From contig CAYQFV010000002.1 of NCBI GenBank assembly GCA_964416845.1, positions 4,525 to 68,524 of the forward strand: DNA of 64,000 nucleotides. Reading direction: 5' to 3'. Of this stretch, positions 42,055-48,709 are shown in pieces; position 1 is the first letter of the stretch; every line of letters begins with the position of its first letter. The position numbers and the translations under genes are program-made. The notes below the pieces were generated by a model. The model was not told the origin of the DNA, did not search any database, and saw only the letters and a list, made by a program, of their open reading frames with translations. The DNA is from an uncultured Phycisphaeraceae bacterium. GTDB taxonomy: Bacteria; Planctomycetota; Phycisphaerae; UBA1845.

Positions 42055-42063
42055 GTGAGTGAG

Positions 42064-42498
42064 ATGACAATGAAGACACGAACAGCCCAGTTGATGACGA
42101 TCGGCGAGGTGGCCCGTATGGCGAGTGTGGCGACGCCCACGCTGCGGTACTACGAGCAGGAGGGTCTCCTTTCTCCGACCACGCGGAGCCGAGCAGGCTA
42201 CCGTCTTTACAATGCCGAAGCGGTCGAACAGTTGCGGTTCATCCGCTCCGCACAGGCAGTGGGATTCACCCTCGACGACATCCGCACGCTCGCCCGGCTC
42301 GAAGGAGAGAGTGGCAAGACTTGCAAAGCGGAAGTAAGGCGGCTGCTGGGGCAACGGCTTGCGGAAGTCAACGACAAGATGAAGGATTTGAAACGCGTTC
42401 AGCAGGCATTGGGGCAAGCCCTGGACCGTTGTCAACGCTCGAATGGCGAGTGCAAGGTACTGAAGGAAATCCGCCCCACAAGACAAAGAAGGAGATGA
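42064..42498 (+). CDS. MerR-family metal-sensing transcriptional regulator (CadR/PbrR/ZntR-like)
   Basis: HTH MTIGEVARMASVATPTLRYYEQEGLL...GYRLY, then a coiled-coil dimerisation helix. There is a Cys at the helix start (GKTCKAEV) and a C-terminal C-x6-C (DRCQRSNGECKV). The start could be 42055 (GTG), 42064, 42070 or 42094. Confidence 0.85.
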   Translation: MTMKTRTAQLMTIGEVARMASVATPTLRYYEQEGLLSPTTRSRAGYRLYNAEAVEQLRFIRSAQAVGFTLDDIRTLARLEGESGKTCKAEVRRLLGQRLAEVNDKMKDLKRVQQALGQALDRCQRSNGECKVLKEIRPTRQRRR

Positions 42499-42833
42499 TG
42501 ATGGTGACAAGACGATGGACGCTGTCCGCCCTGGCGGTGGCGATGCTTGGTGTCGCTGCGCTTGGAGCGGTGAGACTGGCCGCCGCCGACTCGGGGCGAG
42601 CGGACTGCCCTGGCAAGATCGTCTGCCCACAAACGGGCAAGCTCATCTGCCGGGACAAGTGTCAGATGATTGACCAGAATCGCCCGGACTGCCCCGGTCG
42701 AGTCGTGTGCCCGCTCACGGGAAAGCTTGTGTGCAAGGATCGGTGCCCTCTCGGCGACACGGCGACGAAGAAAGGCGACGCGAAAAACGCAGATGCGAAG
42801 GACAAGCCGGCGTGCTGTCGGAAAGGCAAATGA
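42495..42833 (+). CDS. Small exported protein with duplicated four-Cys repeat (putative periplasmic metal-binding; unknown family)
   Basis: The start ATGATGATG overlaps the regulator's TGA. Signal: MMMVTRRWTLSALAVAMLGVAALGAVRLAAA|DSG, with a Tat-like RR. Two 28-aa-spaced repeats follow: DCPGKIVCPQTGKLICRDKC and DCPGRVVCPLTGKLVCKDRC. The tail is Lys-rich and ends ACCRKGK. Confidence 0.65.
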   Translation: MMMVTRRWTLSALAVAMLGVAALGAVRLAAADSGRADCPGKIVCPQTGKLICRDKCQMIDQNRPDCPGRVVCPLTGKLVCKDRCPLGDTATKKGDAKNADAKDKPACCRKGK

Positions 42834-43309
42834 CGGCTGACTGTTCCAAGGACGACCTCATTGCGGAAAGCGCGCCGCAAAGGGGCCGTCCGGGTTGGCT
42901 GCAAACGCTGATCGCCATCCCGGCGGCGGTGCTGCCACTATTGCCGAGTTTTTCGTGCCCGGTATGCGTCGCAGCCTACGCGGGCTTGCTCTCGTCGCTG
43001 GGTTTGGGCTTCCTTCTCACCGATCGCGTGCAGAGGCCCATGATCGTTGCGTTCCTGGTTGTTTCGGTGGCCAGCGTGGCCTGGACTGCGAGGCAATATA
43101 AGCGGACCGGACCGTTGGTACTTGTCCTTGTTGGCTCCGCCGGGATCGTCGCGGGACGCCTCGTGTGGAGCGTAGCACCAGCGCTGTACGCTGGCGCGCT
43201 CTGCCTTGTGACGGGCACCGTTTGGAACCTGATACTGAAGCGGCCGCGGACGAAACTTGTCACGCTGACCGTCGCGGATACCGCGCACACGAGGGGCCCG
43301 AGTTCATGA
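42830..43309 (+). CDS. MerC-like heavy-metal transport membrane protein
   Basis: The ATG at 42830 overlaps the previous TGA (ATGA). There are four hydrophobic helices. The first carries SCPVCVAAYAGLLSSLGLGFL, which is comparable to the MerC CxxC helix ending ...IGLGFL. Confidence 0.55.
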   Translation: MTADCSKDDLIAESAPQRGRPGWLQTLIAIPAAVLPLLPSFSCPVCVAAYAGLLSSLGLGFLLTDRVQRPMIVAFLVVSVASVAWTARQYKRTGPLVLVLVGSAGIVAGRLVWSVAPALYAGALCLVTGTVWNLILKRPRTKLVTLTVADTAHTRGPSS

Positions 43310-43389: not shown

Positions 43390-46245
43390 TCACCCGCCGA
43401 TGTCGGCGCTTAGGATGCGCACGATGTCGGCGCGACTCATTGTGCCGGCTCCGGGGTGGGAATTCTCCTTCAACTCGTTGCCTTGCTCGTCGATGAAGCG
43501 GTCCAACTGCTGTACGTCGACGAATACCCTGGTCGCGCCGCTGGCCCCCACGGTCGTCAGCAACGTCGGTTGAACCGGATCGGTCACGTCGATGACTTGC
43601 AGCCCGACGACACTGTTGGCCACTAGAGCGTAGTCGTCGACTCCCGGCGGTGCCATCTGGCTGGCGACGTCGACATCATTCGCGCTGCCACCGAGGTCCG
43701 AGATCGCAGCAACTTGGACGACGTTGTCAGGCTCGGTGATATCGTAGACGCGTAGGCCATTCGTCCCGGCGACGACATAAAGGTAGTCGTGCTCGCGCGA
43801 AGGCGTCGAACCGGCCGCCTCGAGGAAGTGGGTGTAGGTGTCCAAACCGGACGCTCCGGAAAGCTCAAGCCCACCGACCAGCTTCGGCGACGAGAATTCC
43901 GGCAGGAGATCAACAATACGCACGCCGAAATCCGGATCAGCCACATACGCCCTCGCGGCAAACGCCGGCCCCTTTTGATGATGGGCGTAAAGCGCTACGT
44001 CCGCTGCGTTCATGCCTGCCAGCGTGCCGGCGATGCGCGGTTCGTTGTGGTCCGAGATGTCGACGACCACCAACCCCGCGTCGCCCGCCGCGACGAACAG
44101 ATGGATGCCCCATGGAACAGCTCGGACAGCCGTGGGGATCGACACCGATGCGACCAACTCCGCCGACGTGGGATTGGCATTGTCATAGATGTTGACGCCT
44201 TCACCGGCGATCACGACGTAGAGATATCGTGCGGCGAAGCTGACGTCGATGGCGTTGATATTGTTGACTACCGTGGCAGCGGCGGTCGGCATGCCGTCTG
44301 TCATGTCAAAGATCGACAATCCGTCGCTACCGGACGCAACGTAGAGATAGTCTGCCTTTCCAGAGACCACGTTCGCACGAGAAGCCACCGCTCGCGGCGA
44401 CCCGGCGGCAAGCGTGGCGAGCAATACCGGGTTCGCAGGATCGGTATTGCGGTCGAACACGCGGATGCCATCGCTTGCCACTACGTAAGCGTCGTCGCGC
44501 GCGAGTGAATAGTTCCCCGAACCAAGCCCCAACGACGGCGGCGATCGGTGACACTCAACGCAGGTGCGCACCTCGTCACGCCCGCGGATCGTGTGCGGCT
44601 GGACCGGCTGGAGCGCCAGGCCGGACAATCCGTTGACCGTTTCGGGCATGACGAAATCGAGCTTCTTGCTGCCGTCGGCAGCGGTCACGTCTGCAATGGG
44701 TTGGCAGCCGACGATGTACGGCGAGACCTTCCCTTGGGCGTTCATGCCCATCGCGAAGTGCTTCAGGGACACGAACACCTTGTTTCCTGTGCTTGCTTTC
44801 CCCAACTCCTCCTCTCGCGTGATCAGATTGAGACCTGTGAGAGTTTCGTCGCGTTGAAAATGACAACCGAAGCAGTTGGGCATCCATGAAGCGTGGCACG
44901 CGTAACACTCCAGACCACCCTGCACCTTGAGATGGTTCTCGTTCATGGCTGCTGCTGCTTTGGCGTTGTATCGATTGGACTCGGGATTGACGACGTCCAT
45001 CACCTGAGGCACGACATGGGCCGCCCCGTTGACTTTGGACGTCAGGATGACGTCGCCGTCGCCGGTTCGCTCGACATTGCCAAGCGAGTTGCCATCTCGA
45101 TCGGTCAGCGTACCCGGCGCATCGGGGAGCCCGTGGCAGGTGCGACATTCGACCTTGGTCGCCTGATCCATGTGCCCATAGATGTTGCCGTCGCCCATCA
45201 CGCCGGCCTGCGTGTGGCAATCGATGCACGCCATGTTTCGTTCGCCATGAAGATCTTGTGGGTTCGTCTCGGCATCCGCGTAGTGATAGTTGCCGTTGAA
45301 CTTGACATCGGTCGTGCCCGCCACATCGGGTCCGGAGGGCAGTCGCGGTGGCATTTGAGACCGGCCTGAGAAGCTAAGACCAATGCGGGCACCGCGATGA
45401 TGGCAGTGGGCACACTGTGTTGAAGGGATCACGCGTGTGATCTGATGGATAACCGGGTGCCCCTGCTCGGTGTGATCGATGGACGTGTCCGCACTGCCTG
45501 ATCGACCGTCGTTGTCGTACACCATGTGACAGGCGGCGCAGCCGTCAGCGCGATAGGTCCCATCTGCCCCCTCAGCCCCACGATATCCCTTGCCCCGCGA
45601 CCAGAGATGGCAGCGGGCGCAAACTTGGCCTGGGACCGCGCGGTAGTGCGTGGCGAACTCGGCTTGGTCGAGCGATGGGTCGTACTTGATCAGGTCGATC
45701 AACTCGTCGACGGCGCCCGCTTCGGTCGGCACGTCGCCATCCTCATCGCGCACGGCAAAGTTTCCGTACACCGGCGTCTTGCTGTCCGTGACACCGTTTT
45801 GGTACAGACCGCCCGCGTAATGACCGGCCCCGGTGGCCATCAGGCCCTTGAGTATCCAGTCCACGTGTGGAACGTGACACTTGCCGCACGTCTCGCGCAC
45901 GACACGAAGGTTCGACGGGTTGACGAATTGCTGATACGGCAGGTCGTAGTCGAGCGGCGGCGTGGTCTTGTCCATGATGACCGGCAGCGTCGGCTGAACA
46001 TGGGCGCTCGCCATTTCCGCCGACGAAAAGTCTCCGCCGTGACAATCAGTGCAGTCGATCGACGCGTTGGCGTGAATGTCTTCGATCTTGTCATGACACT
46101 CGAGGCAACCAGGGTTGCTCTTCGTGAACGTCTTCGGGGGTGTCGTCGGCTCGAACGAACAACCAGCCACCACCATCACAAAACCTGTCATCGCCACAAT
46201 GCGAACGAACGAAACCATGGTCGACCTGCAGCCTGCGGTGTTCAT
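43390..46245 (-). CDS. Undecaheme c-type cytochrome lipoprotein fused to LVIVD-repeat beta-propeller-like domain
   Basis: 951 aa. Lipobox VMVVAGCS. Eleven CxxCH motifs: CLECH, CTDCH, CGKCH, CARCH, CAACH, CAHCH, CIDCH, CRTCH, CYACH, CFGCH, CVECH. The C-terminal ~370 aa contain about six repeats of the YLYVAxGxxGLxIxDxxxP type (e.g. DYLYVASGSDGLSIFDMTD, HLFVAAGDAGLVVVDISDHNEP, DYLYVVAGTNGLRVYDITEPDN). Confidence 0.8.
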   Translation of the reverse strand: MNTAGCRSTMVSFVRIVAMTGFVMVVAGCSFEPTTPPKTFTKSNPGCLECHDKIEDIHANASIDCTDCHGGDFSSAEMASAHVQPTLPVIMDKTTPPLDYDLPYQQFVNPSNLRVVRETCGKCHVPHVDWILKGLMATGAGHYAGGLYQNGVTDSKTPVYGNFAVRDEDGDVPTEAGAVDELIDLIKYDPSLDQAEFATHYRAVPGQVCARCHLWSRGKGYRGAEGADGTYRADGCAACHMVYDNDGRSGSADTSIDHTEQGHPVIHQITRVIPSTQCAHCHHRGARIGLSFSGRSQMPPRLPSGPDVAGTTDVKFNGNYHYADAETNPQDLHGERNMACIDCHTQAGVMGDGNIYGHMDQATKVECRTCHGLPDAPGTLTDRDGNSLGNVERTGDGDVILTSKVNGAAHVVPQVMDVVNPESNRYNAKAAAAMNENHLKVQGGLECYACHASWMPNCFGCHFQRDETLTGLNLITREEELGKASTGNKVFVSLKHFAMGMNAQGKVSPYIVGCQPIADVTAADGSKKLDFVMPETVNGLSGLALQPVQPHTIRGRDEVRTCVECHRSPPSLGLGSGNYSLARDDAYVVASDGIRVFDRNTDPANPVLLATLAAGSPRAVASRANVVSGKADYLYVASGSDGLSIFDMTDGMPTAAATVVNNINAIDVSFAARYLYVVIAGEGVNIYDNANPTSAELVASVSIPTAVRAVPWGIHLFVAAGDAGLVVVDISDHNEPRIAGTLAGMNAADVALYAHHQKGPAFAARAYVADPDFGVRIVDLLPEFSSPKLVGGLELSGASGLDTYTHFLEAAGSTPSREHDYLYVVAGTNGLRVYDITEPDNVVQVAAISDLGGSANDVDVASQMAPPGVDDYALVANSVVGLQVIDVTDPVQPTLLTTVGASGATRVFVDVQQLDRFIDEQGNELKENSHPGAGTMSRADIVRILSADIGG

Positions 46246-46315
46246 GTATTCTCAACCTCTATTGACGGTCGCCAGCGTGATCGATCACGCGACTCGCGGG
46301 CACCGGACGGGTCAT

Positions 46316-46334
46316 GCAAGGCAACTTGCCTTGC
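46316..46334. promoter_or_regulatory. Perfect 9-1-9 palindrome upstream of the cytochrome gene (candidate operator)
   Basis: GCAAGGCAA-C-TTGCCTTGC lies about 70-90 nt upstream of the cytochrome start on the minus strand. No cognate regulator is identified. Confidence 0.25.
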
Positions 46335-46936
46335 TGATACAAGGATCATTCTTCTCGATGCGGTTGCCGAAATCGGCGTTGCCCCTCGACGTCCGCACAC
46401 GTCGCCCGGGGGCACGAGAAACCGCTTCGCGGAATCGGTCCCTGCGATGCCGCCTCACCGAAACCCCAGAATTCGCACCGAGGGTTGGGACTCGTCCGTC
46501 GAATGCGACCGCCGCCAGTTTAATCGGCCGACATCGCGAGTCAAACTTAAATGTAGTTAATTATTGTAAGAAGATTCACCAGGGCCGTCAGACACGCATG
46601 TCGCAATCGTCACGATAAAACGACTCCGGCCCGAAAATCGCAAGCGTCGCGAGCGATGAACCACCAATGCATCGCACGTCTCGCCAACCCAACGGGCGAG
46701 ACACTCCAACTCTTTCTCGGCTGACCGCCAAACCGCACGCGATTCCGCTGGGTTTGAAGAATTGAATGCCCGCCGCCCACCACTTCGCGAGATCGCCCAC
46801 TCGATGAATCGCCCCGGATCTCGCCGAGGGGAATGACCGACTTGTCGATCGTCACACACCGCGTGTAAATATGCACCATCGCCCTCACTGCCGGCCGAAT
46901 TCATACGGTGACAGCGGAACGTCTGGTTATTATAGG

Positions 46937-46965
46937 ATTGCACTGTGAGCCATTTTACGGTATCT
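46937..46965 (+). promoter_or_regulatory. Candidate sigma-70-type promoter of the M43 protease gene
   Basis: TTGCAC (46937-46942), a 17-nt spacer, then TATCTT (46960-46965), about 100 nt upstream of the ATG at 47069. Pattern match only. Confidence 0.25.
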
Positions 46966-47068
46966 TGAGTGGTCTCGGCGGCTGTCATCGGGCGGGAGGT
47001 GGTCGCCGTTCGGCTTGGTCTGATCAACACTGCTTCAAACAGAGAATACGAAATACGGAGTGCTGAGC

Positions 47069-48709
47069 ATGCAGGGAAGAATCGCTTCGAGACCGGCGCG
47101 CCGGTTGTGGTTGGCGGTCGTGCTGATGTGGGTCGTCCCCGTCGGAGCGCAGGACCAGCAGTCTGCACCGAACCAACAAGCATCGGGCGATGACCGAAGC
47201 GTCATCGTCGTGGACGGTCGAGCATTCTCCACCTGGCAAGAGTACGTGTCATCGGACCTATTCCGTCGCAACGGGTTGCGTTGCGGCACGAGGCCTAGCT
47301 ACAACGCGGTTGCCGCTCGCAGTGCCGGACCAAGCGACTGCACGTTCTTCCTGACCAATCCTGCTCCCGCCTACGATCCGTCGGTCGGCAAGTTTCGCAT
47401 TCCCGTGGTGGTGCATGTCATCCGCCGCGACGATGGATTCGGCGACGTTAGCGAGGCAATGGTCCAAAGCCAAATCGACATCCTCAACGAGGATTTCCTG
47501 GCACTGACCGGCACGAACGGTCAGAATGGCACCAACGTCGAGATCGAGTTTTTTCTGGCCACGACCGACCCGTCGGGCAGCCCGACCAATGGCATTACCT
47601 ACAGCAACAACACGACGTGGTACAATGACGGTGGCGCCTATTGGAACAGTCTCGCCTGGGACACTAGCCAGTATCTCAACATATACACCAACAGTGCAAG
47701 CGGTGCACTCGGCTACGTTCCCGATTTGCCCCAAGGCGGAATCGCCGGCTCCAACAGCGACCGCGTCGTCATTCTGTGGTCGACATTTGGCAGGAACGCA
47801 CCGTTCGCGCCGTTCGACCAAGGGCGCACGCTCACACACGAGGTCGGCCACTACTTCGGTTTGGAACACACGTTCGCCGGCGCGTGCGCATCGGTAGCAA
47901 GTTGCAACACGAATGGCGATTTGATTTGCGATACCAACCCCGAGTCGTCTCCGAACTTCGGATGCTCGAACTCTCAATCGTGCGGCGTACCGAAGCCCAT
48001 CGAGAACTACATGGACTACTCGGACGATTTGTGCATGGAACAATTCACAGCTGAACAGGCCCGGCGAATGCGATGCTCGTTGGAGTTCTACAGGCCTGCG
48101 CTGTTCCAAATGATCCCAGCCACCTGTGGCGACGGTGTCGTCGGCCCGGACGAAACGTGCGACACCGGGATCGCCGCCGGTCAACCCGGAGCCTGCCCAA
48201 CGGTATGCAACAGCACGGGGTGCACGGTTGGAACATTGCTGGAACCGGGCACGTGTCTGGCGAGTTGCGACTTCTCTCCCATCACGCAGCCGATCAGTGG
48301 CGACGGCTGCTGCCCGCCCGGCGCGAACGCAGCCAACGACAACGACTGTGTGGCGGCGTGCGGCAACAACGTGTGCGAACCCGGCGAACTTGGGATTTGC
48401 GTTGATTGTGATTGCACGGTTGATGCGCAATGCGATGATTCCTTCGTATGCACGACAGATCAATGCGTCAGCGGCCAATGCTCTTACACAGCCAGCTTGT
48501 TCGGCGATGTCGATTTGAATGCAACCGTAAACCTCTTCGATCTGTTCTGTGCGCTGGACGGATTCGGCGGCACTTTCTCGGGCAACTGCACGTTCGAAAG
48601 CGTCGACATCGAACCCTGCGCAGGCAACAACACGATCAACATTCTTGACCTCTTCGCAATTCTGGACGCCTTCAACGGAGTCAACGCCTGCTGCGCCCCA
48701 TCGCCGTAG
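47069..48709 (+). CDS. Secreted M43-family (pappalysin/ulilysin-like) zinc metalloprotease with Cys-rich and dockerin-like C-terminal regions
   Basis: The ATG at 47069 is preceded by ACGGAG. Signal RRLWLAVVLMWVVPVGA|QDQ. Metzincin motif HEVGHYFGLEHTF. Cys-rich repeats (CGDGVVGPDETCD...). The C-terminal duplicated segment DVDLNATVNLFDLFCALDGF / NNTINILDLFAILDAFNG is dockerin/EF-hand-like. Confidence 0.8.
   Translation: MQGRIASRPARRLWLAVVLMWVVPVGAQDQQSAPNQQASGDDRSVIVVDGRAFSTWQEYVSSDLFRRNGLRCGTRPSYNAVAARSAGPSDCTFFLTNPAPAYDPSVGKFRIPVVVHVIRRDDGFGDVSEAMVQSQIDILNEDFLALTGTNGQNGTNVEIEFFLATTDPSGSPTNGITYSNNTTWYNDGGAYWNSLAWDTSQYLNIYTNSASGALGYVPDLPQGGIAGSNSDRVVILWSTFGRNAPFAPFDQGRTLTHEVGHYFGLEHTFAGACASVASCNTNGDLICDTNPESSPNFGCSNSQSCGVPKPIENYMDYSDDLCMEQFTAEQARRMRCSLEFYRPALFQMIPATCGDGVVGPDETCDTGIAAGQPGACPTVCNSTGCTVGTLLEPGTCLASCDFSPITQPISGDGCCPPGANAANDNDCVAACGNNVCEPGELGICVDCDCTVDAQCDDSFVCTTDQCVSGQCSYTASLFGDVDLNATVNLFDLFCALDGFGGTFSGNCTFESVDIEPCAGNNTINILDLFAILDAFNGVNACCAPSP

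What the first reader, a model, noticed from the sequence alone, without database searches (positions are those of the whole stretch)
43390..46245. Undecaheme cytochrome c lipoprotein fused to an LVIVD-repeat propeller-like domain
The N-terminal ~580 aa contain 11 CxxCH motifs behind a lipobox (VAGC). The C-terminal ~370 aa consist of about six repeats of the LVIVD type (YLYVAxGxxGLxIxDxxxP). In my knowledge these repeats occur in poorly characterised surface proteins and are not normally attached to multiheme domains. A surface or periplasmic electron conduit welded to a beta-propeller suggests substrate, mineral or partner docking coupled to electron transfer. The gene is monocistronic. Its 820-bp upstream region is shared divergently with a secreted M43 protease and contains a perfect 19-bp palindrome.
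Basis: partly seen in the sequence, partly recalled or inferred. Interest (0 to 1): 0.55.

Follow-up and report, generated by a model that had tools for sequence, protein, structure and literature searches.

The report
Surface undecaheme cytochrome with inserted propeller
This planctomycete gene encodes a lipid-anchored protein with eleven hemes and a seven-bladed propeller inserted near its end; it belongs to a widespread, unnamed family that in some marine bacteria sits where the outer-surface cytochrome MtrC normally sits, so it is probably a new kind of cell-surface electron-transfer protein.

Summary
A 951-aa ORF (43390-46245, minus strand) has a lipobox (Cys29), 11 CxxCH motifs and a confidently modelled LVIVD-type beta-propeller (pLDDT about 95). 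The propeller has seven blades, not six.

It is not an assembly artefact and it is not rare. The 120 best hits are 56-100% identical, nearly all over at least 93% of the length. 76 loci in GTDB species genomes carry it, all from uncultured MAGs, mostly marine Phycisphaerae/Planctomycetota plus Acidobacteriota and Gammaproteobacteria.

- **Heme core:** a distant relative of Geobacter ExtM (189 bits against a cut-off of 800). No close solved structure was found.
- **Propeller:** an insertion, not a terminal fusion. The conserved 38-aa tail after it follows the last heme motif directly in 35 heme-only relatives.
- **Context:** in all four informative gammaproteobacterial loci the gene lies just upstream of mtrA-mtrB, with cymA-like and pdsA-like genes nearby. 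That is the MtrC position. In Planctomycetota it is almost always the only multiheme gene within 10 kb.
- **Anchors:** members have a lipobox or a dockerin/TSP3/IPTL-CTERM extension, rarely both.

Best reading: a cell-surface terminal cytochrome for extracellular electron transfer, with the fast-evolving propeller as a docking module. No function has been tested and I found no published description. It is a new variant of a known kind.

The parts
43390..46245 (-). Whole gene: 951-aa undecaheme lipoprotein with inserted seven-bladed propeller (stop codon 43390-43392)
   Evidence: ORF. An identical protein (P0001) and full-length homologs at 56-92% identity are. The AF2 model of the whole chain has pLDDT 93.2 and pTM 0.90.
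46159..46245 (-). Signal peptide with lipobox (VVAGC, lipidated Cys29 predicted)
   Evidence: Sequence. The lipobox Cys is conserved in close orthologs and in the gammaproteobacterial members. A lipobox rarely occurs together with a C-terminal anchor extension. No signal-peptide predictor was available, so this rests on the motif.
46111..46158 (-). Pro/Thr-rich 16-aa tether between the lipidated Cys and the first heme motif
   Evidence: Sequence SFEPTTPPKTFTKSNP. This N-terminal region has low conservation (aa 1-45: 17% column identity).
44515..46110 (-). ExtM-like heme core (aa 46-577): 11 CxxCH motifs, with a beta-rich subdomain at about aa 457-547
   Evidence: Motifs. NCBIfam ExtM E=1.4e-55, aa 41-577 against profile positions 16-512 of 599. 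70% column identity within the family. 157 clusters at 50% identity have E<=1e-30. Secondary structure.
44860..44874 (-). Heme motif 10 (CFGCH, aa 458-462), the only heme motif lost in sister clades
   Evidence: Replaced by FFGFH/FLGFH in P0124-P0132 and absent in P0134.
44704..44706 (-). Lone conserved Cys514, which co-varies with heme motif 10 (candidate axial ligand; hypothesis only)
   Evidence: Concordant in 12 of 12 sequences of A2. Over 236 sequences: with heme 10 present, 159 Cys, 9 Met and 38 other; with heme 10 absent, 7 Cys and 23 other.
43507..44514 (-). Seven-bladed LVIVD-type beta-propeller (aa 578-913), inserted into the core
   Evidence: Pfam LVIVD. 28 strands with pLDDT about 95. 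Seven YLYVAxGxxGLxVxD...P repeats. Foldseek hits are propellers only. It diverges faster than the heme core: 22-30% against 42-50% identity in sister clades.
43393..43506 (-). Conserved tail (aa 914-951; LDRFIDEQGxxLKENSHPGA...IVRIL, His930). It is the C-terminal segment of the ancestral ExtM-like core
   Evidence: 69% column identity. H930 is kept in 11 of 12 divergent members. The same motif follows the last heme motif within about 15-50 aa in 35 heme-only representatives. pLDDT above 90 in the second model.
46246..47059 (.). 814-bp intergenic region shared divergently with the M43 peptidase gene; presumed promoter and leader
   Evidence: Two weak sigma-70-like matches on the minus strand at 46591-46563 and 46544-46517. 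No Rfam family matched.
46316..46334 (.). Perfect 19-bp palindrome GCAAGGCAACTTGCCTTGC, 71-89 bp upstream of the ATG
   Evidence: Not conserved upstream of orthologs. The leader fold is unremarkable (z=-1.75).
46275..46290 (.). Perfect 16-bp palindrome GCGTGATCGATCACGC, 30-45 bp upstream of the ATG
   Evidence: Only 6 perfect palindromes of 16 bp or more occur in the whole 64-kb window, and two of them lie within 60 bp here. Not conserved in orthologs.

Best explanation
The gene encodes a cell-surface (outer-face) multiheme cytochrome that acts as the terminal module of an extracellular electron-transfer pathway. It is a functional analogue of MtrC/OmcA but not a homologue of them.

Proposed sequence of events, all inferred:
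1. The protein is exported through Sec.
2. It receives 11 c-type hemes in the periplasm.
3. It is lipidated on Cys29 and displayed on the cell envelope.
4. Electrons move along the chain of mostly bis-His hemes, between an envelope conduit and an external partner. In Gammaproteobacteria the conduit is an MtrA-like decaheme inside an MtrB-like porin. The external partner could be a mineral, a polymer-bound or soluble redox species, or another cell or protein.

The seven-bladed propeller is inserted into a loop right after the last heme motif. Both of its ends are tied to the heme core, so it is mounted rigidly next to that heme. It most likely serves as a docking platform for the substrate, surface or partner, not as a catalytic centre.

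The direction of electron flow (reduction or oxidation of the external partner) cannot be told from sequence. In Phycisphaerae the trans-outer-membrane partner is not encoded nearby and remains unknown.

Shown here: the architecture, its conservation, the insertion topology, the gene context and the anchor alternation. Inferred: localisation, heme ligation, electron flow and the docking role.
For: 1. Mtr context. In every gammaproteobacterial locus with usable flanks (L016/L003, L070, L039; L020 is cut inside mtrA) the gene sits immediately upstream of an MtrA-like and an MtrB-like gene, with cymA-like and diheme genes in the same cluster. The five genes are kept even though their order differs between L016 and L039.
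2. The partners are bona fide. The decaheme passes the DmsE/MtrA-family cut-off (289 against 192 bits) and the porin passes the MtrB/PioB cut-off (424 against 240). NapC/CymA-like and PdsA-like proteins lie upstream. No OmcA/MtrC-family protein is in those clusters, and our protein does not match that model.
3. Surface-protein behaviour. Lipobox with a short tail: 24 members. No lipobox with a 60-185-aa C-terminal extension: 67 members. Both: only 2 (Fisher p about 1e-10). The extensions are dockerin type I, TSP3 repeats and an IPTL-CTERM sorting signal, each above its Pfam cut-off. Two MAGs carry one paralog of each type. There is also a weak 'choice-of-anchor B' hit.
4. Heme chemistry fits a wire. 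Ten hemes and ten non-motif His residues are conserved across all same-architecture clades.
5. The propeller behaves like a binding module. In sister clades it falls to 22-30% identity while the heme core stays at 42-50%. Only Gly, Ala, Val and Asp scaffold positions stay invariant. H755, E818, H819 and D820 are not conserved.
6. The insertion topology and pTM 0.90 indicate a rigid heme-core/propeller unit.
7. Precedent. Separate beta-propeller lipoproteins recur in extracellular electron-transfer cytochrome islands: D. ferrophilus DFE_0451/0452/0463 (PMC8322314) and the Tenderia UetH/UetI NHL proteins (bioRxiv 10.1101/2022.05.06.490989). An NHL-propeller/30-heme ORF lies next to the closest orthologs.
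Against: - In this window and in the Planctomycetota and Acidobacteriota loci no MtrA-, MtrB-, CymA- or PdsA-like gene lies within 10 kb of the gene, nor anywhere in the 64-kb window. In nearly all of these loci it is also the only ORF with three or more CxxCH motifs; the exceptions are L004, L030 and L065. No other neighbour recurs. How electrons would cross the outer membrane in these organisms is therefore unexplained.
- Localisation rests on motifs only. A lipobox does not prove surface exposure, and lipoprotein sorting in Planctomycetota is poorly understood.
- The heme core's only named relative, ExtM, has no tested function. In Geobacter, ExtM was detected in periplasm and in both membranes (PMC5877670).
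Heme-to-propeller distances and the position of conserved surface patches could not be measured.
Confidence: 0.55

Rival explanations
1. It is a redox enzyme, either periplasmic or surface-located. The propeller, or a special heme next to it, binds and converts a small soluble substrate such as a sulfur, selenium, nitrogen or iodine species. The other hemes wire that site to the respiratory chain. Known examples of this design are cd1 nitrite reductase, hydrazine synthase and the quinohemoprotein dehydrogenases.
For: - The gene stands alone in most genomes, as expected for a self-contained enzyme that uses generic periplasmic redox partners.
- Overall conservation is close to that of the housekeeping gene pdxJ.
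- Within the close family many polar propeller residues are invariant: H755, R765, E818, H819, D820, D871.
- Lone Cys514 co-varies with heme 10. This could mean a His/Cys-ligated heme of the type that is catalytic in TsdA and SoxA (the comparison rests on my own knowledge).
- The named relatives come from a 'selenite/tellurite reduction operon'.
- The Foldseek propeller hits include enzymes: a phosphotriesterase, a selenium-binding protein and NirS.
Against: - The candidate propeller site is not conserved in sister clades with the same architecture. Only scaffold residues remain.
- Heme 10 and Cys514 are dispensable in those clades.
- Ten conserved His for ten conserved hemes argues for bis-His electron-transfer hemes with no open coordination site.
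- The MtrC-position context and the dockerin or IPTL-CTERM anchors fit a surface conduit better than a periplasmic enzyme.
- There is no sequence similarity to NirS, hydrazine synthase, HAO, NrfA or OTR beyond a 60-aa heme-pair motif (E about 1e-3).
Confidence: 0.2
2. It is mainly an adhesion or matrix protein. The propeller and the dockerin-type anchors attach cells to particles or to a cell-surface scaffold. The hemes act as an electron store (capacitor) or as a redox sensor or antioxidant, not as a respiratory conduit.
For: - LVIVD propellers and dockerin, TSP3 and IPTL-CTERM modules are typical of surface and adhesion proteins.
- LVIVD and NHL propeller proteins have been proposed to support attachment in electroactive bacteria.
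- Many host lineages, such as Kangiellaceae and pelagic Phycisphaerae, are not known metal respirers (my own knowledge).
- No respiratory partner is encoded nearby in Planctomycetota.
Against: - The heme core is the most conserved part (70% against 58% for the propeller).
- The gene is embedded in complete CymA-PdsA-MtrA-MtrB clusters where such clusters exist. This points to through-conduction as the selected function.
Confidence: 0.12
3. It is an artefact: a frameshift or mis-assembly has joined a cytochrome gene to a separate LVIVD-protein gene.
For: None found.
Against: - An identical protein occurs on independent NCBI and JGI records.
- All 120 best hits share the architecture, nearly all at 93% coverage or more.
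- 76 loci in GTDB species genomes from several phyla carry it.
- The conserved tail after the propeller belongs to the heme-core family.
- AF2 models the chain as one compact unit with pTM 0.90.
Confidence: 0.01

Closest known systems
MtrC/OmcA-family outer-surface decaheme lipoproteins of the Shewanella MtrCAB conduit
   Same: - It is a lipoprotein with 10-11 c-type hemes.
- In Gammaproteobacteria it is encoded immediately upstream of mtrA-mtrB, in a cluster with a CymA-like quinol dehydrogenase and a periplasmic diheme shuttle. This is the same gene position and the same presumed role as the extracellular terminal cytochrome.
   Different: - There is no detectable sequence relationship. The OmcA/MtrC model TIGR03507 is not matched, and only faint PF22113 hits appear in some relatives.
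- The heme core is ExtM-like.
- It carries an inserted seven-bladed propeller, which MtrC lacks.
- Most family members occur in genomes with no adjacent MtrAB.
ExtM (GSU2935), the 12-heme cytochrome of the Geobacter extHIJKLMNOPQS cluster (NCBIfam NF040943)
   Same: It is the only named family with a substantial match. E=1.4e-55 over aa 41-577 against profile positions 16-512 of 599. This is the same superfamily of heme cores of about 530 aa, most members of which are 600-770 aa proteins with no propeller hit.
   Different: - The score is 189 bits against an equivalog cut-off of 800, so it is not an ortholog.
- It has 11 hemes, not 12.
- It has the propeller insertion.
- Its gene context differs: there is no ExtI porin, ExtKL or bc-type ExtOPQ nearby.
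- The C-terminal 87 positions of the ExtM profile are not matched, even after the propeller is deleted in silico.
- ExtM itself has no tested function (PMC5877670).
Beta-propeller (NHL-type) proteins encoded beside extracellular multiheme cytochromes: Tenderia UetH/UetI with undecaheme UetJ, and D. ferrophilus DFE_0451/0452/0463
   Same: An extracellular multiheme cytochrome is associated with a 6-7-bladed propeller, often a lipoprotein, in pathways for extracellular electron transfer. The number of hemes (11) equals that of UetJ.
   Different: - In those systems the propeller is a separate polypeptide of the NHL type. Here it is an LVIVD-type domain inserted into the cytochrome chain.
- Homology of the heme core to UetJ was not tested, because no UetJ sequence was available.
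- The Tenderia LVIVD protein is a different, heme-less protein.
Heme-plus-propeller redox enzymes: cytochrome cd1 nitrite reductase NirS, hydrazine synthase, quinohemoprotein dehydrogenases
   Same: A c-type heme domain is joined to a beta-propeller in one chain. The NirS propeller appears among the Foldseek hits.
   Different: - Those propellers hold a cofactor or active site with strictly conserved ligands. Here no such conserved site survives across clades.
- There are 11 hemes here, against 1-2 in those enzymes.
- There is no sequence similarity.

Membership tests
Multiheme c-type cytochrome (general class) | Multiple CxxCH heme-attachment motifs in an exported protein, with conserved distal ligands | tested here: met
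   11 CxxCH motifs behind a signal peptide. All motifs are conserved in the family. Ten non-motif His residues are conserved together with ten hemes across clades. Covalent heme attachment itself cannot be tested here.
LVIVD-repeat beta-propeller (Pfam PF08309) | Score above the Pfam gathering threshold and tandem repeats of about 42-48 aa that form four-stranded blades | tested here: met
   48.9 bits against a cut-off of 20.2. Seven repeats and 28 strands with pLDDT about 95. Foldseek hits are propellers.
ExtM equivalog (NCBIfam NF040943) | Whole-protein score at or above the curated cut-off of 800 bits | tested here: not met
   188.7 bits. Other family members and heme-only relatives score 187-214 bits. 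It is a superfamily relative, not an ExtM ortholog.
ExtM equivalog (NCBIfam NF040943) | Location in an extHIJKLMNOPQS-type cluster (porin ExtI, ExtKL, ExtN, Rieske/cytochrome b ExtOPQ) | tested here: not met
   No other multiheme ORF occurs in the 64-kb window. The neighbours are an M43 peptidase, MerR/MerC, ClpS and PdxJ.
OmcA/MtrC-family decaheme cytochrome (TIGR03507) | Match to the family model | tested here: not met
   The model is not among the NCBIfam hits at E<=1. Pfam Mtrc-MtrF_II-IV_dom is not hit in this protein.
OmcA/MtrC-family decaheme cytochrome (TIGR03507) | Lipoprotein encoded next to mtrA and mtrB (works-like criterion, not homology) | tested here: inconclusive
   Met for the gammaproteobacterial members. 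Not met in this window or in other Planctomycetota and Acidobacteriota loci.
Porin-cytochrome (Mtr-type) extracellular electron-transfer module | Co-encoded periplasmic decaheme and an outer-membrane beta-barrel that pass their family cut-offs | tested here: inconclusive
   The partners pass their cut-offs in L003 (289 against 192 bits; 424 against 240 bits). No partner lies within the 64-kb window. The rest of this genome could not be searched.
Choice-of-anchor B family (TIGR04312) | Score at or above 100 bits, and occurrence with alternative C-terminal sorting signals | tested here: not met
   Only 26.9 bits, over aa 823-889. The family does nevertheless alternate between anchors.
Bacterial lipoprotein | Lipobox [LVI][ASTVI][GAS]C at the end of a signal peptide; lipidation and localisation | tested here: inconclusive
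   The motif VAGC is present and conserved in orthologs. No dedicated predictor was available, and lipidation and surface exposure need experiment.
Heme-propeller enzymes (cd1 NirS, hydrazine synthase) | Sequence or profile similarity, and conserved cofactor or active-site ligands in the propeller | tested here: not met
   No PDB sequence or profile hit beyond a 60-aa heme-pair motif with E about 1e-3. The polar propeller residues are not conserved across clades.

The most novel reading that the evidence does not exclude
Marine Phycisphaerae, and Acidobacteriota that carry the same gene, use this stand-alone undecaheme-propeller protein in an extracellular or envelope redox process that does not depend on any known porin-cytochrome conduit. 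One possibility is a new route for electrons across the planctomycetal envelope. Another is a surface redox enzyme, in which the conditionally present heme 10 (possibly His/Cys-ligated through Cys514) or the propeller face next to the last heme acts on an external substrate such as sulfur, selenium or iodine species, dissolved organic matter or metal oxides. Either case would define a new functional class of surface cytochrome, and would give a widespread but physiologically obscure marine group an unsuspected respiratory or detoxifying capability.
Probability: 0.15. Interest if true: 0.8.

Novelty: new variant of a known kind. Interest (0 to 1): 0.62.

Why it matters
Extracellular electron transfer is understood mainly from a few model systems: Shewanella MtrCAB, the Geobacter Omc/Ext/Pcc systems, and Cyc2 and Mto in iron oxidisers.

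This family would add a new terminal module with these properties:
- **Non-homologous replacement of MtrC.** It takes the MtrC position beside bona fide MtrAB in marine Gammaproteobacteria.
- **Domain insertion.** It shows that a propeller, usually a separate accessory lipoprotein in such gene islands, can be built into the cytochrome itself.
- **Unexpected hosts.** It is common in uncultured marine Phycisphaerae and Acidobacteriota, groups not known for electron exchange with their surroundings.

It therefore offers a marker gene for unrecognised redox activity in oxygen-minimum zones, sediments, hydrothermal sites and crustal fluids. It also offers a compact scaffold (heme wire plus rigid binding platform) of possible interest for bioelectronics.

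It gives a first contextual clue to the function of the large, untested ExtM-like cytochrome superfamily. The stand-alone occurrence in Planctomycetota raises a concrete and testable question: how do electrons reach a surface cytochrome when no porin-cytochrome partner is encoded nearby?

Tried and rejected
- **Solved relatives.** Sequence (phmmer) and profile searches of the PDB found only a 60-aa heme-pair motif of octaheme nitrite reductases, with E about 1e-3 to 0.1. They do not identify the fold.
- **First AF2 run.** With 33 close homologs the heme domain had pLDDT below 50. Adding divergent heme-only relatives solved this.
- **Metal or catalytic site in the propeller (H755, H819, H930, E818, D820).** Rejected as a family-wide feature, because these residues are not conserved in sister clades. 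H930 lies in the tail, not the propeller, and is also conserved in heme-only relatives.
- **Conserved neighbours.** All-against-all clustering of ORFs from 77 loci found nothing shared by more than 12 loci. Three further annotated contigs gave only housekeeping neighbours.
- **Regulatory reading of the palindromes.** They are not conserved upstream of orthologs. No Rfam family matched and the leader fold is unremarkable.
- **In-silico propeller deletion.** It did not extend the ExtM alignment. Only the ExtN/ExtO-type alignments extended, from 33 to 40 bits. Geobacter ExtM itself therefore does not support the insertion model.
- **Literature.** Searches for LVIVD with multiheme or cytochrome, Phycisphaerae with extracellular electron transfer, Kangiella with MtrB, and MtrC alternatives found no description of this family.
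- **Database names.** A cluster-member look-up returned no names.

Full report
**Observation**

The ORF at 43390-46245 on the minus strand is intact and encodes 951 aa. It has exactly 11 CxxCH motifs between aa 47 and 566 and no variant motifs. 22 of its 25 cysteines lie in those motifs. In all six reading frames of the 64-kb window only two other ORFs contain even a single CxxCH. The N-terminus ends in a lipobox (VVAGC, Cys29). A lipobox Cys is kept at the same place in the closest orthologs although the surrounding residues vary.

Pfam recognises LVIVD repeats (48.9 bits against a cut-off of 20.2) and only weak generic cytochrome c3/c7 signals. The gene is monocistronic by geometry. A MerR, Cys-rich ORF and MerC set converges on its 3' end, and an M43 peptidase gene diverges from it across an 814-bp intergenic region. 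The perfect 19-bp palindrome is at 46316-46334. I also found a perfect 16-bp palindrome at 46275-46290.

**Not an artefact and not rare**

An identical protein is on record from NCBI and JGI assemblies. The 120 best database hits are 56-100% identical, nearly all over at least 93% of the length (one at 85%), and most carry the same Pfam signature.

A scan of one genome per GTDB species found 76 loci. All come from uncultured MAGs:
- mostly Planctomycetota/Phycisphaerae;
- also Acidobacteriota (Thermoanaerobaculia, Blastocatellia);
- Gammaproteobacteria (Kangiellaceae, Moraxellaceae, Chromatiales);
- one Limisphaerales and one Desulfurellales.

To judge by the MAG names alone, many appear to come from marine habitats. 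This is my reading of the isolate labels and was not checked.

The window itself comes from a Phycisphaerae-type planctomycete. All named homologs of the neighbouring pdxJ gene are from Phycisphaerae, Phycisphaerales or Planctomycetota MAGs, at 67-74% identity. The cytochrome is thus nearly as conserved as a housekeeping enzyme. No source gives the protein a name other than 'hypothetical' or a label for an accessory repeat.

**Anatomy**

A first AF2 run with 33 close homologs modelled only the C-terminal domain well. A second run used 75 sequences, including divergent heme-only relatives, and gave mean pLDDT 93.2 and pTM 0.90 for the whole chain. The parts are:
- **aa 46-577:** the heme core, which includes a beta-rich subdomain at about aa 457-547.
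- **aa 578-913:** 28 strands, which make seven four-stranded blades. Each blade starts with a YLYVAxGxxGLxVxD...P repeat of the LVIVD type. The count is therefore seven, not 'about six'.
- **aa 914-951:** a tail that is conserved separately (LDRFIDEQGxxLKENSHPGA...IVRIL).

Foldseek against the PDB returned only 7-8-bladed propellers: WD40 proteins, the BtuG surface lipoprotein, NirS, a phosphotriesterase and a selenium-binding protein. No multiheme structure appeared in the top 50. Sequence and profile searches of the PDB found nothing beyond a 60-aa heme-pair motif.

**The heme core is ExtM-like**

The only substantial named match is NCBIfam ExtM, the 12-heme cytochrome GSU2935 of the Geobacter extHIJKLMNOPQS cluster. 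The match has E=1.4e-55 and covers aa 41-577 against profile positions 16-512 of 599. The score is 189 bits against an equivalog cut-off of 800. ExtM itself has never been characterised (PMC5877670).

I searched the heme core alone against 1.84 billion cluster representatives. It found 1238 relatives at E<=1e-3, 624 at E<=1e-10 and 157 at E<=1e-30. Of the best 150:
- 126 give no propeller hit; most are 600-770 aa;
- 9-13 clusters have our exact layout;
- about 10 have a more distant heme module with an LVIVD-like propeller further downstream.

The fusion is therefore one recurrent subfamily inside a large, uncharacterised ExtM-like superfamily.

**The propeller is an insertion**

The tail motif follows the last heme motif and the 'LGLGSG' segment within about 15-50 residues in 35 heme-only representatives. 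One example is P0141...CSECHSSSKAVGLGSGYYNAQNNGVNVDIPVQMDQLIDENGKQLQTISHPGARPF.... In our protein the same two segments are separated by the 336-aa propeller. Both ends of the propeller are therefore tied to the heme core right after heme motif 11. This fits the high pTM.

Deleting the propeller in silico did not extend the ExtM alignment. It extended only the ExtN/ExtO-type alignments, from 33 to 40 bits. The support for the insertion model comes from the heme-only relatives, not from Geobacter ExtM.

**What is conserved**

Within the close family the column identities are 70% for the heme core, 58.5% for the propeller and 69% for the tail. In sister clades with the same architecture the heme core stays at 42-50% identity, while the propeller drops to 22-30%. 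In those clades only Gly, Ala, Val and Asp scaffold positions of the propeller remain invariant. H755, E818, H819 and D820, which are invariant in the close family, are not kept. This argues against a fixed catalytic or metal site and for a binding or scaffold module that adapts.

Ten hemes and ten non-motif histidines (58, 82, 142, 200, 263, 267, 333, 410, 438, 551) are conserved across these clades. That is consistent with bis-His electron-transfer hemes.

Heme motif 10 (CFGCH, aa 458) is lost in some clades, and the lone Cys514 is lost with it in 12 of 12 sequences. Over 236 aligned sequences the counts at position 514 are:
- heme 10 present: 159 Cys, 9 Met, 38 other;
- heme 10 absent: 7 Cys, 23 other.

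Cys514 may therefore be an axial ligand of heme 10. This is a hypothesis only. The counts are not phylogenetically independent, and His930 provides a spare conserved histidine.

**Context**

In this window and in the Planctomycetota and Acidobacteriota loci no MtrA-, MtrB-, CymA- or PdsA-like gene lies nearby. In nearly all of these loci the gene is also the only multiheme ORF within 10 kb. The exceptions are L004, L030 and L065. No neighbour recurs in more than 12 of 77 loci, and three further annotated contigs show only housekeeping genes.

The gammaproteobacterial loci differ. In L016/L003 (Kangiellaceae), L070 (Kangiella), L039, and L020 (which is cut off inside mtrA), the gene lies immediately upstream of an MtrA-like and an MtrB-like gene. 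CymA-like and diheme cytochrome genes sit in the same tight cluster, with gaps of 8-38 bp around the gene in L003. The same five genes are kept although their order differs in L039. The scores of the partners are:
- decaheme: 289 bits against the DmsE/MtrA-family cut-off of 192;
- porin: 424 bits against the MtrB/PioB cut-off of 240;
- the two upstream genes resemble NapC/CymA and the periplasmic diheme shuttle PdsA, both below their cut-offs.

No OmcA/MtrC-family protein is present in those clusters. Our family fills the MtrC position without being homologous to MtrC.

**Anchoring**

I classified 112 family members:

| N-terminus | C-terminus | Members |
|---|---|---|
| Lipobox | Short tail | 24 |
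| No lipobox | Extension of 60-185 aa | 67 |
| Lipobox | Extension | 2 |
| No lipobox | Short tail | 19 |

Fisher's test gives p about 1e-10, without correction for phylogeny. Some of the 19 in the last row are misses of my pattern.

The extensions are dockerin type I (P0077), and TSP3 repeats ending in an IPTL-CTERM sorting motif (P0024). Each scores above its Pfam cut-off. Two MAGs carry one paralog of each type. Alternation between anchors of this kind is typical of proteins displayed on or outside the cell envelope.

**Interpretation**

The best-supported explanation is a cell-surface terminal cytochrome for extracellular electron transfer. It would be a functional analogue of MtrC built from an ExtM-type heme core, with a rigidly inserted and fast-evolving propeller next to the last heme motif as the docking platform (confidence about 0.55). 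The direction of electron flow cannot be inferred.

The main weakness is that in Phycisphaerae, including this window, no outer-membrane conduit is encoded nearby. Localisation also rests on motifs only.

The main rival is a redox enzyme that uses the propeller or a special heme as its active site (about 0.2). It is weakened by the lack of a conserved site across clades and by the dispensability of heme 10 and Cys514. An adhesion or capacitor role (about 0.12) is weakened because the heme core is the most conserved part. The artefact explanation is refuted.

**Comparison with known systems and novelty**

Separate propeller lipoproteins are a recurring accessory in cytochrome islands for extracellular electron transfer. 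Examples are D. ferrophilus (PMC8322314) and the Tenderia uet cluster, whose UetJ is also an undecaheme. An NHL-propeller/30-heme ORF lies beside the closest orthologs of our gene.

I found no paper that describes an LVIVD-cytochrome fusion or this replacement of MtrC. The major Mtr survey (PMC8805035) and the Gallionellaceae cytochrome survey (PMC10734462) do not mention it.

I therefore rate it a new variant of a known kind. The principle is familiar: a surface multiheme cytochrome together with a propeller. The implementation is undescribed: a propeller inserted into an ExtM-like core, substituting for MtrC, and widespread in Phycisphaerae.

Noticed in passing
window 46275-46290 and 46316-46334: Two perfect palindromes (16 and 19 bp) lie within 60 bp of each other, 30-89 bp upstream of the start codon. 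Only six perfect palindromes of 16 bp or more occur in the whole 64-kb window. They are not conserved upstream of orthologs. They may be operator sites for a regulator specific to this locus.
   Followed up: partly
window 42055-43309 (+): A MerR-family regulator and a MerC-family membrane protein flank a small secreted Cys-rich ORF. The ORF lies within 42321-42833 and was called as 111 aa in L001. It has a duplicated DCPGxxVCPxTGKLxCxDxC motif and no Pfam match. It could be a novel periplasmic metal-binding partner of MerC.
   Followed up: partly
L004 13201-17424 = L082 13204-17424: About 350 bp downstream of the 74-75% identical ortholog in a Planctomycetota MAG (Dive96_bin2.90) lies an ORF of at least 1407 aa, cut by the contig end. 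It has N-terminal NHL repeats and a six-bladed propeller followed by 30 CxxCH motifs. This is a second propeller-multiheme fusion of a different type.
   Followed up: partly
L006 + L009 (MAG OFTM285); L008 + L010 (MAG S.6.sp2_bin.21): Two Phycisphaerae MAGs each carry two paralogs of the family. One is a lipobox type with a short tail. The other has an ordinary signal peptide and a C-terminal extension of 85 or 173 aa. This suggests distinct roles for cell-anchored and scaffold- or matrix-attached forms.
   Followed up: partly
L079 10031-12031: A Planctomycetota relative (46% identity over aa 100-600) has no propeller. The region after the last shared heme motif is replaced by six more heme motifs, giving 14 in all. 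It is followed by a 4-heme ORF. The loop after heme 11 therefore seems to be a hotspot for module exchange.
   Followed up: no
window 44704-44706 (Cys514) and 44860-44874 (heme motif 10): The lone cysteine co-varies with the only facultative heme motif of the family. Position 514 is Cys or Met in 168 of 206 sequences that have heme 10. This hints at an unusual axial ligation (His/Cys or His/Met) of that heme.
   Followed up: partly
window 47060-48709 (+): The divergent M43 peptidase has a signal peptide, a Cys-rich middle region and, by eye, two dockerin-like Ca-binding repeats at its C-terminus (DVDLNATVNLFDLF... and DIEPCAGNNTINILDLF...). Pfam did not report a dockerin at E<=0.001. If the repeats are real, this organism also uses dockerin-type display, although its cytochrome uses a lipid anchor.
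   Followed up: no
many long family members, e.g. P0104, P0108, P0116-P0118, P0073-P0078: A conserved N-terminal module of about 40-100 aa (consensus ...PHGxVRVDxxDGPVWIxQ...) precedes the first heme motif in many members that lack a lipobox. It is absent from the window protein and its function is unknown.
   Followed up: no
L081 15672-21258: In one JGI contig of 533 kb, a cluster of three T2SS-E/MshE-type ATPases and a T2SS-F protein lies about 2.6 kb downstream of the family member. This may be coincidence, but MtrC-type lipoproteins need type II secretion to reach the surface (my own knowledge).
   Followed up: no
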